64,000 nt of DNA from Octopus vulgaris (Eukaryota), in the NCBI GenBank assembly GCA_951406725.2, contig OX597817.1, positions 101,122,001 through 101,186,000 on the forward strand, read 5' to 3'. A program made the position numbers and the translations under genes. Below the pieces are notes generated by a model that saw nothing but the letters and a program-made list of their open reading frames with translations, ran no database searches and was not told where the DNA came from. Each line of letters opens with the position of its first letter. Position 1 is the first letter of the stretch. Below, piece by piece: positions 25,456 through 32,703 of the stretch.

Positions 25456-25800
25456 AATAATAATAATAATAATAATAATAATAATAATAATAATAATAAT
25501 AATAATAATAATAATAATAATAATAATAATGATAATGATAATGATAATGATAATGATAATGATAATGATAATGATAATGATAATGATAATGATAATAATA
25601 ATAATAATAATAATAATAATAATAATAATAATAATAATAATAATAATAATAATAATAATAATAATAATAATAATAATAATAATAATAATAATAATAATAA
25701 TAATAATAATAATAATATTAATAGAACAACAGAAAAAAGATGGTATAGGCACACACCAGAAAAGGTCACAGAAAACGAGAAAGCAACCATACTCTGGGAT

Positions 25801-26154
25801 ATGCCGATACACACAGATAGAGAAATTAAGGCCAACAGACCAGATATAGTTGTCAGAGATCATGAAGAAAAAAAATGCTTTTTAATTGATGTATCAATAC
25901 CGGCAGATGACAACGTGTCTCTAAAAGAAATGGAGAAACTCTCAAAATACAAAGACCTGGAAATAGAGGTAACTAGAATGTGGAATCTGAAAACAGAAAC
26001 AATTCCTATCATAGTAGGTGCATTAGGCATGATAAAAAAATATTCAGACAAATACATAACAAAAACACCAGGACTTACAAACACATATAACATACAGAAA
26101 ATTGCACTACTAGGCACTGCCCACATCCTACGCAGAACACTTTCCATACAATAA
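25801..26154 (+). pseudogene. Isolated RLE PD-(D/E)xK endonuclease C-terminal ORF, 117 aa (unit 1)
   Basis: NRPDIVV..LIDVSIP..EKLSKY.DL..IIVGALG; lacks RT and zinc knuckle. Confidence 0.7.
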
Positions 26155-27412
26155 CCATCAGAGCATCACAACAAATCACAGCACATACCCAAGGCACACA
26201 GAGCTGCGCTCGGTAGTGAAGTGAAAGCACGCTATAAAAATAAAAATAAAACAACTGAATAATAATAATAATAATAATAATAATAATAATAATAATAATA
26301 ATAATAATAATAATAATAATAATAATAATAATAATAATAATAATAATAATAATAATAATAATAATAATAATAATAATAATAATAATAATAATAATAATAA
26401 TAATAATAATAATAATAATAATAATAATAATAATAATAATAATAATAATAATAATAATAATAATAATAATAATAATAATAATAATAATAATAATAATAAT
26501 AGAACAACAGAAAAAAGATGGTATAGGCACACACCAGAAAAGGTCACAGAAAACGAGAAAGCAACCATACTCTGGGATATGCCGATACACACAGATAGAG
26601 AAATTAAGGCCAACAGACCAGATATAGTTGTCAGAGATCATGAAGAAAAAAATGCTTTTTAATTGATGTATCAATACCGGCAGATGACAACGTGTCTCTA
26701 AAAGAAATGGAGAAACTCTCAAAATACAAAGACCTGGAAATAGAGGTAACTAGAATGTGGAATCTGAAAACAGAAACAATTCCTATCATAGTAGGTGCAT
26801 TAGGCATGATAAAAAAATATTCAGACAAATACATAACAAAAACACCAGGACTTACAAACACATATAACATACAGAAAATTGCACTACTAGGCACTGCCCA
26901 CATCCTACGCAGAACACTTTCCATACAATAACCATCAGAGCATCACAACAAATCACAGCACATACCCAAGGCACACAGAGCTGCGCTCGGTAGTGAAGTG
27001 AAAGCACGCTATAAAAATAAAAATAAAACTACTGAATAATAATAATAATAATAATAATAATAATAATAATAATAATAATAATAATAATAATAATAATAAT
27101 AATAATAATAATAATAATAATAATAATAATAATAATAATAATAATAATAATAATAATAATAATAATAATAATAATAATAATAATAATAATAATAATAATA
27201 ATAATAATAATAATAATAATAATAATAATAATAATAATAATAATAATAATAATAATAATAATAATAATAATAATAATAATAATAATAATAATAATAATAA
27301 TAATAATAATAATAATAATAATAATAATAATAATAGAACAACAGAAAAAAGATGGTATAGGCACACACCAGAAAAGGTCACAGAAAACGAGAAAGCAACC
27401 ATACTCTGGGAT

Positions 27413-27766
27413 ATGCCGATACACACAGATAGAGAAATTAAGGCCAACAGACCAGATATAGTTGTCAGAGATCATGAAGAAAAAAAATGCTTTTTAATTG
27501 ATGTATCAATACCGGCAGATGACAACGTGTCTCTAAAAGAAATGGAGAAACTCTCAAAATACAAAGACCTGGAAATAGAGGTAACTAGAATGTGGAATCT
27601 GAAAACAGAAACAATTCCTATCATAGTAGGTGCATTAGGCATGATAAAAAAATATTCAGACAAATACATAACAAAAACACCAGGACTTACAAACACATAT
27701 AACATACAGAAAATTGCACTACTAGGCACTGCCCACATCCTACGCAGAACACTTTCCATACAATAA
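27413..27766 (+). pseudogene. RLE endonuclease C-terminal ORF (unit 3)
   Basis: Identical protein to unit 1. Confidence 0.7.
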
Positions 27767-28219
27767 CCATCAGAGCATCACAACAAATCACAGCACATAC
27801 CCAAGGCACACAGAGCTGCGCTCGGTAGTGAAGTGAAAGCACGCTATAAAAATAAAAATAAAACTACTGAATAATAATAATAATAATAATAATAATAATA
27901 ATAATAATAATAATAATAATAATAAAATAATAATAATAATAATAATAATAATAATAATAATAATAATAATAATAATAATAATAATAATAATAATAATAAT
28001 AATAATAATAATAATAATAATAATAATAATAATAATAATAATAATAATAATAATAATAATAATAATAATAATAATAATAATAATAATAATAATAATAATA
28101 ATAATAATAATAATAATAATAATAATAATAATAATAATAATAGAACAACAGAAAAAAGATGGTATAGGCACACACCAGAAAAGGTCACAGAAAACGAGAA
28201 AGCAACCATACTCTGGGAT

Positions 28220-28573
28220 ATGCCGATACACACAGATAGAGAAATTAAGGCCAACAGACCAGATATAGTTGTCAGAGATCATGAAGAAAAAAAATGCTTT
28301 TTAATTGATGTATCAATACCGGCAGATGACAACGTGTCTCTAAAAGAAATGGAGAAACTCTCAAAATACAAAGACCTGGAAATAGAGGTAACTAGAATGT
28401 GGAATCTGAAAACAGAAACAATTCCTATCATAGTAGGTGCATTAGGCATGATAAACAAATATTCAGACAAATACATAACAAAAACACCAGGACTTACAAA
28501 CACATATAACATACAGAAAATTGCACTACTAGGCACTGCCCACATCCTACGCAGAACACTTTCCATACAATAA
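28220..28573 (+). pseudogene. RLE endonuclease C-terminal ORF (unit 4)
   Basis: One K>N change, shared with unit 6. Confidence 0.7.
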
Positions 28574-29817: not shown

Positions 29818-30171
29818 ATGCCGATACACACAGATAGAGAAATTAAGGCCAACAGACCAGATATAGTTGTCAGAGATCATGAAGAAAAAAAATGCTTTTT
29901 AATTGATGTATCAATACCGGCAGATGACGACGTGTCTCTAAAAGAAATGGAGAAACTCTCAAAATACAAAGACCTGGAAATAGAGGTAACTAGAATGTGG
30001 AATCTGAAAACAGAAACAATTCCTATCATAGTAGGTGCATTAGGCATGATAAACAAATATTCAGACAAATACATAACAAAAACACCAGGACTTACAAACA
30101 CATATAACATACAGAAAATTGCACTACTAGGCACTGCCCACATCCTACGCAGAACACTTTCCATACAATAA
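29818..30171 (+). pseudogene. RLE endonuclease C-terminal ORF (unit 6)
   Basis: K>N and N>D changes. Confidence 0.7.
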
Positions 30172-31446
30172 CCATCAGAGCATCACAACAAATCACAGCA
30201 CATACCCAAGGCACACAGAGCTGCGCTCGGTAGTGAAGTGAAAGCACGCTATAAAAATAAAAATAAAACTACTGAATAATAATAATAATAATAATAATAA
30301 TAATAATAATAATAATAATAATAATAATAATAATAATAATAATAATAATAATAATAATAATAATAATAATAATAATAATAATAATAATAATAATAATAAT
30401 AATAATAATAATAATAATAATAATAATAATAATAATAATAATAATAATAATAATAATAATAATAATAATAATAATAATAATAATAGAACAACAGAAAAAA
30501 GATGGTATAGGCACACACCAGAAAAGGTCACAGAAAACGAGAAAGCAACCATACTCTGGGATATGCCGATACACACAGATAGAGAAATTAAGGCCAACAG
30601 ACCAGATATAGTTGTCAGAGATCATGAAGAAAAAAAATGCTTTTTAATTGATGTATCAATACCGGCAGATGACAACGTGTCTCTAAAAGAAATGGAGAAA
30701 CTCTCAAAATACAAAGACCTGGAAATAGAGGTAACTAGAATGTGGAATCTGAAAACAGAAACAATTCCTATCATAGTAGGTGCATAAGGCATGATAAAAA
30801 AATATTCAGACAAATACATAACAAAAACACCAGGACTTACAAACACATATAACATACAGAAAATTGCACTACTAGGCACTGCCCACATCCTACGCAGAAC
30901 ACTTTCCATACAATAACCATCAGAGCATCACAACAAATCACAGCACATACCCAAGGCACACAGAGCTGCGCTCGGTAGTGAAGTGAAAGCACGCTATAAA
31001 AATAAAAATAAAACTACTGAATAATAATAATAATAATAATAATAATAATAATAATAATAATAATAATAATAATAATAATAATAATAATAATAATAATAAT
31101 AATAATAATAATAATAATAATAATAATAATAATAATAATAATAATAATAAATAATAATAATAATAATAATAATAATAATAATAATAATAATAATAATAAT
31201 AATAATAATAATAATAATAATAATAATAATAATAATAATAATAATAATAATAATAATAATAATAATAATAATAATAATAATAATAATAATAATAATAATA
31301 ATAATAATAATAATAATAATAATAATAATAATAATAATAATAATAATAATAATAATAATAATAATAATAGAACAACAGAAAAAAGATGGTATAGGCACAC
31401 ACCAGAAAAGGTCACAGAAAACGAGAAAGCAACCATACTCTGGGAT

Positions 31447-31800
31447 ATGCCGATACACACAGATAGAGAAATTAAGGCCAACAGACCAGATATAGTTGTC
31501 AGAGATCATGAAGAAAAAAAATGCTTTTTAATTGATGTATCAATACCGGCAGATGACAACGTGTCTCTAAAAGAAATGGAGAAACTCTCAAAATACAAAG
31601 ACCTGGAAATAGAGGTAACTAGAATGTGGAATCTGAAAACAGAAACAATTCCTATCATAGTAGGTGCATTAGGCATGATAAAAAAATATTCAGACAAATA
31701 CATAACAAAAACACCAGGACTTACAAACACATATAACATACAGAAAATTGCACTACTAGGCACTGCCCACATCCTACGCAGAACACTTTCCATACAATAA
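31447..31800 (+). pseudogene. RLE endonuclease C-terminal ORF (unit 8)
   Basis: Identical protein to unit 1. Confidence 0.7.
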
Positions 31801-31902
31801 CCATCAGAGCATCACAACAAATCACAGCACATACCCAAGGCACACAGAGCTGCGCTCGGTAGTGAAGTGAAAGCACGCTATAAAAATAAAAATAAAACTA
31901 CT

Positions 31903-32703
31903 AATAATAATAATAATAATAATAATAATAATAATAATAATAATAATAATAATAATAATAATAATAATAATAATAATAATAATAATAATAATAATAATAA
32001 TAATAATAATAATAATAATAATAATAATAATAATAATAATAATAATAATAATAATAATAATAATAATAATAATAATAATAATAATAATAATAATAATAAT
32101 AATAATAATAATAATAATAATAATAATAATAATAATAATAATAATAATAATAATAATAATAATAATAATAATAATAATAATAATAATAATAATAATAATA
32201 ATAATAATAATAATAATAATAATAATAATAATAATAATAATAATAATAATAATAATAATAATAATAATAATAATAATAATAATAATAATAATAATAATAA
32301 TAATAATAATAATAATAATAATAATAATAATAATAATAATAATAATAATAATAATAATAATAATAATAATAATAATAATAATAATAATAATAATAATAAT
32401 AATAATAATAATAATAATAATAATAATAATAATAATAATAATAATAATAATAATAATAATAATAATAATAATAATAATAATAATAATAATAATAATAATA
32501 ATAATAATAATAATAATAATAATAATAATAATAATAATAATAATAATAATAATAATAATAATAATAATAATAATAATAATAATAATAATAATAATAATAA
32601 TAATAATAATAATAATAATAATAATAATAATAATAATAATAATAATAATAATAATAATAATAATAATAATAATAATAATAATAATAATAATAATAATAAT
32701 AAT
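31903..32703. repeat. ~800-bp uninterrupted (AAT)n microsatellite
   Basis: Direct reading. Confidence 0.95.

What the first reader, a model, noticed from the sequence alone, without database searches (positions are those of the whole stretch)
25456..32703. Eight-unit array: constant 534-bp retrotransposon 3' end alternating with variable (TAA)n spacers
Seen: every unit starts at the same point (gaacaacag) and ends at the element's 3' end. Spacers are about 268, 244, 301, 273, 252, 279, 211 and 350 bp, followed by ~800 bp. All units share differences from the adjacent parent (gtgtct vs gtttct, gcccacatc vs gcacatatc, extra aaaaat), so they did not derive from it. Units 4 and 6 share ataaacaaa; units 2 and 5 share a 1-A deletion. 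Five units keep an intact 117-aa PD-(D/E)xK ORF. Inference: a nascent satellite formed by unequal exchange between TAA tracts after a single truncated insertion. Alternatives are serial insertion or template jumping of a defined short RNA, i.e. a SINE-like derivative.
Basis: partly seen in the sequence, partly recalled or inferred. Interest (0 to 1): 0.75.

Follow-up and report, generated by a model that had tools for sequence, protein, structure and literature searches.

The report
LINE fragment amplified between AAT tracts
Eight near-identical tail pieces of a young jumping gene sit in a row between long AAT repeats; they share a joint found nowhere else in the genome and were likely multiplied in place from one insertion by recombination between the flanking AAT tracts, and two more such arrays exist elsewhere in this genome.

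Summary
In detail: eight 533/534-bp units, spacers as reported, 0-3 differences between units, 19-21 to the adjacent parent. The unit is the 3' end of a young, high-copy (AAT)n-targeting RLE non-LTR retrotransposon (Dong/R4-like; clade not tested). Its junction (AAT)n-AG-AACAACAG is found only here (6 of 6 exact matches). The same cut point without AG occurs in 23 scattered copies; the 20 examined are single and 0-9% diverged, so this is no SINE and no serial insertion. Units 4 and 6 share an allele seen 8 times against 6,843, which points to DNA-level copying. The phenomenon recurs: 3 of 64 long-tail loci hold same-junction arrays (8, 7 and at least 5 units), and three shorter repeats show hybrid units or co-duplicated host DNA. 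Best reading: the target tract flanks each insertion as a direct repeat, so one insertion seeds a tandem array by unequal exchange. A circle-templated concatemer and assembly over-expansion are not excluded; no reads could be laid across the junction. A new variant of known TE-to-satellite routes. The scan's notes held nothing similar.

The parts
19471..21902 (+). Older, degenerate copy of the same retrotransposon family (about 80% identical to the parent); the parent sits in its AAC/AAT tail
21976..25455 (+). Adjacent 'parent' copy, 5'-truncated, older subfamily, with stops and an expanded GAA run; RT (PF00078, E 4e-31), zf-RVT/CCHC, PD-(D/E)xK-type C-terminus. Not the source of the units
25456..25723 (+). 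Spacer 0: (AAT)25, an AATGAT block, (AAT)41, then ATT-AAT-A. The inferred original target tract; its GAT block and ATT are not copied into later spacers
25724..26257 (+). Unit 1 (private T>A in the last bases); ORF 117 aa intact
26258..26501 (+). Spacer 1, (AAT)81
26502..27034 (+). Unit 2 (A7 instead of A8, frameshift)
27035..27335 (+). Spacer 2, (AAT)100
27336..27869 (+). Unit 3, identical to the youngest subfamily; ORF intact
27870..28142 (+). Spacer 3, about 91 AAT, one interruption
28143..28676 (+). Unit 4, rare A>C allele shared with unit 6; ORF intact
28677..28928 (+). Spacer 4, about 84 AAT, two interruptions
28929..29461 (+). Unit 5 (A7, frameshift)
29462..29740 (+). Spacer 5, about 93 AAT, ending in AGA (junction AGAG)
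29741..30274 (+). Unit 6, rare A>C allele plus a private A>G; ORF intact
30275..30485 (+). Spacer 6, (AAT)70
30486..31019 (+). Unit 7 (private nonsense change, ORF 74 aa)
31020..31369 (+). Spacer 7, about 116 AAT
31370..31902 (+). Unit 8, lacks the terminal G; ORF intact
31903..32703 (+). Final pure (AAT)267 tract
32704..33242 (.). 539-bp non-coding interspersed element bounding the array, flanked by AAT on both sides; not part of the repeat unit

Best explanation
The array is eight copies of one 5'-truncated piece of a young (AAT)n-targeting retrotransposon, likely multiplied in place by unequal recombination between the long AAT tracts on its two sides. Steps: (1) shown: the family inserts into AAT tracts, including the tails of its own older copies, and ends in (AAT)n, so an insertion has AAT on both sides. 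(2) inferred: a copy of the youngest subfamily was cut short at an AAT microhomology, gained two untemplated letters (AG) and landed in the tail tract of the older 'parent'. (3) inferred: the two tracts acted like LTRs; out-of-register exchange, or repair synthesis that slipped between them, duplicated [unit + AAT], and later rounds between units and tracts gave eight, with crossover register and slippage setting each spacer's length. (4) shown: the amplified unit has not spread to other loci. It is likely neutral and young, well under 1 My on a borrowed clock. No function is proposed for the 117-aa remnant.
For: The AG junction has 6 of 6 exact matches in this array. The sister arrays' junctions are equally private: 6 of 6 and 4 of 4. 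The A>C allele of units 4 and 6 has 8 places genome-wide, 2 of them here, against 6,843 for A; two independent hits among 8 units would have odds of about 2e-5 (my arithmetic). 106 of 131 5' junctions have (AAT)4 within 60 nt upstream (loci were partly chosen for long tails). The C1:94.56M array has 7 units, all with a private poly-A, and no parent copy beside it, so a double insertion is not needed. The C31:4.968M array repeats a complex junction, with the same one-letter irregularity, in each of its 4 complete units. DNA-level exchange is visible in this family: in the triplets at C1:65.18M and C7:8.50M the middle unit is a 5'-B/3'-A hybrid and the spacer is copied almost exactly, and at C13:26.35M about 170 bp of host DNA is duplicated with two identical units. 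The three long arrays have spacers of 70-585 AAT, against a median pure tail of 8.5 in 28 scattered young copies.
Against: The ATT just before unit 1 is absent from the other seven junctions, although a crossover inside spacer 0 should have carried it along. It must be a later change or have been repaired away. ATT near junctions is somewhat more common (12 of 106) than inside tails (6 of 135), so it may be an original insertion scar. No unit is a parent/unit hybrid, so this array holds no direct crossover trace. The leftmost unit of the C1 array has a garbled 5' part and the C31 array abuts an assembly gap, so copy numbers may be misassembled. The link between long tracts and arrays rests on 3 loci found through a search for long tails, which favours arrays. 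No reads or other individuals were tested.
Confidence: 0.7

Rival explanations
1. One-step concatemer: a truncated RNA or cDNA was circularised through its AAT tail and copied round and round, by the element's reverse transcriptase or by rolling-circle DNA synthesis, and the multimer was integrated once.
For: Identical junctions are expected from a circle. ATT occurs only at the outermost junction, and the GAT block of spacer 0 is not copied. The integration machinery re-copies short stretches: 11 of 131 junctions have a reiterated head, and full-length copies carry 1 to about 12 tandem 22-24-nt 5' repeats. The outermost unit of the C1 array is incomplete or garbled.
Against: A rare allele shared by non-adjacent units 4 and 6 needs DNA-level copying afterwards anyway. 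Where the 5' repeats are reiterated, the joining letters vary from repeat to repeat, whereas the array junction is constant, which argues against jumping on a linear RNA. The outermost unit here is complete to the same junction. The shorter repeats of the family show plain recombination.
Confidence: 0.13
2. Assembly over-expansion: a locus with one to a few units between long AAT tracts was looped by the assembler, and polishing produced the small differences.
For: A unit flanked by the same long repeat on both sides forms a cycle in an assembly graph (general knowledge). One sister array has a blended first unit and another abuts a gap. The A7/A8 site varies erratically in this array and in the C1 array.
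Against: Spacers differ by up to 139 bp and are almost pure; units carry distinct substitutions, one shared and rare. 61 of 64 long-tail loci show no array of 5 or more units, including copies with 60+ AAT on both sides. Assemblers usually collapse near-identical tandem units (general knowledge).
Confidence: 0.12
3. A defined short mobile unit (SINE-like derivative), or eight separate insertions cut at the same point.
For: The same cut point, without AG, occurs in 23 scattered copies. The family often stacks in its own tails.
Against: The AG junction is absent elsewhere. The 20 scattered copies examined belong to different subfamilies, are 0-9% diverged, share no private alleles, and none is repeated with the same junction. 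Stacked independent insertions have different 5' ends.
Confidence: 0.03

Closest known systems
Dong elements (R4 lineage; Dong of Bombyx mori, DongAg, DongBg of the snail Biomphalaria), which target TAA microsatellites (PMC3812793 and PMC3774820, passages); Dong-R4 is the most numerous recently active LINE group in Octopus vulgaris (PMC13282606, part 1 of 3)
   Same: Single ORF with RT, CCHC and a C-terminal PD-(D/E)xK-type nuclease; inserts into and ends in (TAA)n; young and abundant.
   Different: Clade membership was not tested by phylogeny. No HDV-like ribozyme was found by Rfam or a crude descriptor, whereas Dong has one. I found no report of in-place arrays of a truncated Dong in my searches.
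[quoted passage not shown]
   Same: Tail-to-internal tandem of a 5'-truncated non-LTR element; an identical junction marks one event amplified at DNA level. The triplets at C1:65.18M and C7:8.50M fit this model directly.
   Different: Here, and at C1:94.56M, the repeated unit is one insertion plus microsatellite, and no second insertion is needed as substrate. The spacer is a hypervariable 70-585-unit AAT tract rather than a fixed target-site duplication. The word 'microsatellite' does not occur in that paper's main text.
Tandem LTR retrotransposons from LTR-LTR exchange (PMC5932611, passages)
   Same: Direct repeats on both sides of the element let one copy expand.
   Different: The direct repeats are host or tail microsatellite, not part of the element.
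Satellites from LINE or SINE pieces (cetacean L1 3' end, chicken CR1 HinfI; PMC9659126, passages; squamate SINE-derived satellites, PMC10702118, passages)
   Same: A tandem unit taken from a retroposon 3' part or ORF.
   Different: Those are spread, homogenised satellite families. This is a single-locus, 8-unit array identical to the active family, with a microsatellite as part of the unit.
SaTar arrays of guayule and rice (PMC5907723, passages)
   Same: Arrays of elements built up in microsatellites.
   Different: Those are DNA transposons of mixed families added one by one; here one junction is repeated.

Membership tests
RLE-type non-LTR retrotransposon | Reverse transcriptase domain | tested here: met
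   PF00078, E 4e-31 in the parent; best PDB matches of a young copy are R2 proteins, E 5e-37
RLE-type non-LTR retrotransposon | CCHC finger followed by a PD-(D/E)xK nuclease at the C-terminus | tested here: met
   CRIC..H..SSC, RHD, RPD..LID..K..KY read in the translation; zf-RVT E 4e-5, below its curated cut-off; PDB match runs to residue 794 of 813. The RLE motif pattern itself is recalled
RLE-type non-LTR retrotransposon | Constant 3' end with simple-repeat tail and variable 5' truncation | tested here: met
Dong / R4 clade | Targets (TAA)n microsatellites | tested here: met
   106 of 131 5' junctions have (AAT)4 within 60 nt upstream; Dong target from PMC3812793
Dong / R4 clade | Groups with R4/Dong rather than HERO or NeSL in an RT tree | not testable with these tools
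   No named reference came up among the 120 listed homologues or their cluster members; some HERO families also target microsatellites (PMC4640811)
Dong / R4 clade | HDV-like ribozyme at the 5' end (shown for Dong, PMC3774820) | tested here: inconclusive
   No relevant Rfam hit on L059 or L063; a crude descriptor found 0 in L059; both tests are weak for divergent ribozymes
SINE-like derivative | Dispersed copies that share the same 5' end and private alleles | tested here: not met
Satellite DNA | Head-to-tail near-identical units amplified at DNA level | tested here: met
Satellite DNA | Long arrays, spread to several loci, or heterochromatic location | tested here: not met
   7.2 kb, 8 units, one locus; chromatin state not testable
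Double-insertion tandem (McGurk and Barbash) | Two insertions of the family provide the exchange substrate (hybrid units, copied junction spacer) | tested here: not met
   No parent allele in any unit, and spacer 0 is not copied; met at two other loci

The most novel reading that the evidence does not exclude
The arrays are written in one step by the retrotransposon itself: its reverse transcriptase, which visibly re-copies template ends, runs round a truncated RNA or cDNA closed through the AAT tail and lays down 5-8 units with long stuttered AAT spacers. A LINE would then make ready-made satellites and very long microsatellites at insertion.
Probability: 0.12. Interest if true: 0.7.

Novelty: new variant of a known kind. 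Interest (0 to 1): 0.36.

Why it matters
How dispersed transposons become satellites is usually explained by LTRs, double insertion or rolling circles. This family shows a further simple route: targeting a microsatellite gives every insertion its own flanking direct repeats, so a single truncated copy can expand, and by the same exchange could be cut out cleanly. Three long arrays and three short repeats with private junctions, in one genome and from an apparently still active family, are ready markers to measure that process in populations. The individual array is probably neutral, and the general phenomenon (TE pieces turning into tandem repeats by unequal exchange) is known.

Tried and rejected
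Laying four public contig sets of the same species label on unit 2 with short flanks: the tool skipped the AAT junction, so it says nothing on the array; the second call was left unused because no array-private word outside simple repeats was found (for the C1 array). No RNA holder was listed for the flank; this is no evidence on expression. Shared 1-A deletion as a lineage marker: rejected, 7 of 42 young and 47 of 82 older copies have it. Loss of the terminal G in unit 8 as a marker of the original copy: rejected, it recurs in the C1 and C31 arrays. Origin from the adjacent parent or parent/unit hybrids: rejected. A function for the 117-aa ORF: no Pfam match for the 142-aa unit frame beyond a weak DUF, CCHC missing, three of eight broken; rejected as a remnant. 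Rfam on 24900-33400 found nothing. Naming the clade through homologue names failed. Whether the cut point is a hot spot was compared with only one other position (23 scattered copies versus 0). My notebook called the 32704-33242 element 'opposite strand'; and the 5' reiteration in L030 suggest the + strand instead. Literature searches found no description of in-place arrays of a microsatellite-targeting LINE; the library lacks most subscription papers and the original Dong paper was not held. No supplements were read.
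Full report
Observation. The array is as described. Eight units begin at 25724, 26502, 27336, 28143, 28929, 29741, 30486 and 31370, each 533 bp (532 in units 2 and 5; one more with the terminal G), separated by AAT tracts of 212-351 bp and followed by (AAT)267. Units differ from each other at 0-3 columns (mean 1.6 over 28 pairs, my arithmetic) and from the adjacent parent at 19-21. 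The 117-aa ORF is intact in five units.

The element. The window lies at G000:C4:101122001-101186000 in a 2.8-Gb genome, probably an octopus; that label comes from earlier scan notes and was not tested. The parent and its relatives encode RT (PF00078, E 4e-31), a CCHC finger and a C-terminal PD-(D/E)xK-type nuclease; the closest solved structures are R2 proteins. The family is young and large: 1,793 exact matches to the subfamily's 3' end, 6,843 to an internal 30-mer, and 30 of 42 young copies identical to unit 3. It inserts into AAT tracts (106 of 131 junctions; loci partly chosen for long tails) and often into the tails of its own copies, with different truncations. This matches Dong elements, which target TAA microsatellites (PMC3812793, passages) and belong to the R4 lineage (PMC3774820, passages). 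Dong-R4 is the largest recently active LINE group in Octopus vulgaris (PMC13282606, part 1 of 3 read; also PMC8967140, passages). Clade membership could not be tested, and some HERO families also target microsatellites (PMC4640811, passages).

One insertion, not many. The family reads GGAAT-AACAACAG at the cut point; the array has (AAT)n-AG-AACAACAG. That junction has 6 exact matches in the genome, all in this array; units 1 and 6 have small variants of it. The seamless version, where AAT serves as microhomology, occurs at 23 scattered places. Of these, 20 were examined: they come from several subfamilies, are 0-9% diverged (one more degraded), and none is repeated with the same junction. The cut point is therefore reused by independent truncations, but the array's unit is not a mobile SINE and the eight units are not eight insertions. 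Microhomology and untemplated letters at truncated 5' ends are known from R1 and R2 (PMC2718515, passages).

DNA-level copying. Units 4 and 6 share an A>C change found at 8 places in the genome, 2 of them here, against 6,843 with A. That is copying from one unit to another. The 1-A deletion of units 2 and 5 is common in the family and says nothing.

It recurs. A search for tails of 40 or more pure AAT gave 189 matches, of which 100 were listed; 59 or more gave 75, all listed. Those 75 fall into 64 places at 10-kb clustering (my count). All 64 were read with about 4-5 kb on each side (and the window). Three hold same-junction arrays of five or more units: this one; C1:94.56M, with 7 units of about 680 bp, spacers (AAT)76-109, a private poly-A in all seven and no parent copy beside it; and C31:4.968M, with at least 5 units, spacers (AAT)72-585, a fourfold reiterated junction copied with the same irregularity, and an assembly gap on its left. 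Three shorter cases show recombination directly. At C1:65.18M and C7:8.50M the middle unit is a hybrid of its neighbours and the spacer is copied. At C13:26.35M two identical 681-bp units alternate with three copies of about 170 bp of host DNA. In lists not chosen for tail length, arrays are rare: among the first 100 places the close pairs gave one triplet (that pattern missed the C1:94.56M array because of its poly-A), and the first 100 places show no evenly spaced run. Scattered young copies have a median pure tail of 8.5 AAT (28 copies), far below the spacers. The link to long tracts is suggestive only, because the search favoured arrays.

Mechanism. An element that inserts into (AAT)n and ends in (AAT)n is flanked by direct repeats, like an LTR element. 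Out-of-register exchange or slipped repair between the two tracts would duplicate unit plus tract, give pure units without parent alleles, and give spacers of variable length; all three are seen. This step is inferred. Against it: the ATT before unit 1 is missing from the other junctions, and ATT is somewhat enriched near junctions (12 of 106 versus 6 of 135 tail windows), so it may be an original scar that a crossover should have carried along. A circle-templated concatemer would explain that. The family's machinery does re-copy template ends: 11 of 131 junctions are reiterated, and full-length copies have 1 to about 12 tandem 5' repeats. But those repeats have variable joining letters, and the unit 4/6 allele still needs DNA-level copying. 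Assembly over-expansion cannot be excluded: the read tool skipped the junction, and both sister arrays have assembly blemishes. On the clock used in PMC13282606 (JC 0.09 = 25 My) the units are at most about 0.4 My old; this is a rough upper bound.

Known versus new. McGurk and Barbash (PMC5932611, passages) list LTR exchange, rolling circles and double insertion as sources of tandem TEs, and state that non-LTR elements do not provide their own substrate for unequal exchange. Identical junctions as the mark of one amplified event are described for R1, and truncated R2 copies are duplicated by unequal recombination in rDNA (PMC4370867, passages). Satellites from LINE and SINE pieces are well known (PMC9659126, PMC12628747, PMC10702118, passages), as are microsatellite-built TE arrays in plants (PMC5907723, passages). 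Ten searches found no report of a single microsatellite-targeting LINE insertion expanding through its own target tract; the library is incomplete. Look-ups in the scan's notes returned other tandem systems of this genome but not this one.

Verdict. A real, young, probably neutral tandem amplification of a truncated Dong-like LINE. It is a new variant of a known route from transposon to satellite, recurrent in this genome and testable in populations. Interest 0.36.

Noticed in passing
window 32704-33242: A 539-bp non-coding element with fixed ends and AAT on both sides; 93 BLAST hits in 62 fetched loci, 42 with both ends, no similarity to the LINE. One copy (L030) has the same kind of reiterated 5' head as the LINE. 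Possibly a SINE-like passenger of the AAT-targeting LINE, on the + strand.
   Followed up: partly
L058, L063, L069, L127, L109, L150, L164 (5' ends of full-length copies): Full-length copies begin with 1 to about 12 tandem copies of the first 22-24 nt, with variable joining letters; truncated copies show similar 20-35-nt reiterations (11 of 131 junctions). Looks like repeated re-copying of the template end during integration.
   Followed up: partly
L090-L091 (G000:C1:94.561-94.568M): Sister array of 7 units with (AAT)76-109 spacers; the leftmost unit has a garbled 5' part.
   Followed up: yes
L131 (G000:C31:4.968-4.972M): Sister array of at least 5 short units next to an assembly gap; may be longer than assembled.
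   Followed up: yes
L083-L084 (C1:65.18M), L087 (C7:8.50M), L156 (C13:26.35M): Triplets and a doublet with hybrid units, copied spacers or co-duplicated host DNA; L087 and L156 also suggest target-site duplications of 150-200 bp or more.
   Followed up: partly
window 24441-24521: The short GAA run inside the ORF is expanded to 27 units in the parent, in frame; other older copies have up to about 64. An internal microsatellite nursery.
   Followed up: no
window 18401-21902 and 33370-37030: Several older, more distant RLE-type RT fragments on the + strand, each bounded by AAT-type tracts: the region is a stack of AAT-targeting elements of different ages.
   Followed up: no
L088, L092, L106, L139, L158, L160, L163, L168, L173: Several family copies are followed by microsatellite tracts of 1.2 kb or more (AAT, in one case GAT).
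   Followed up: no
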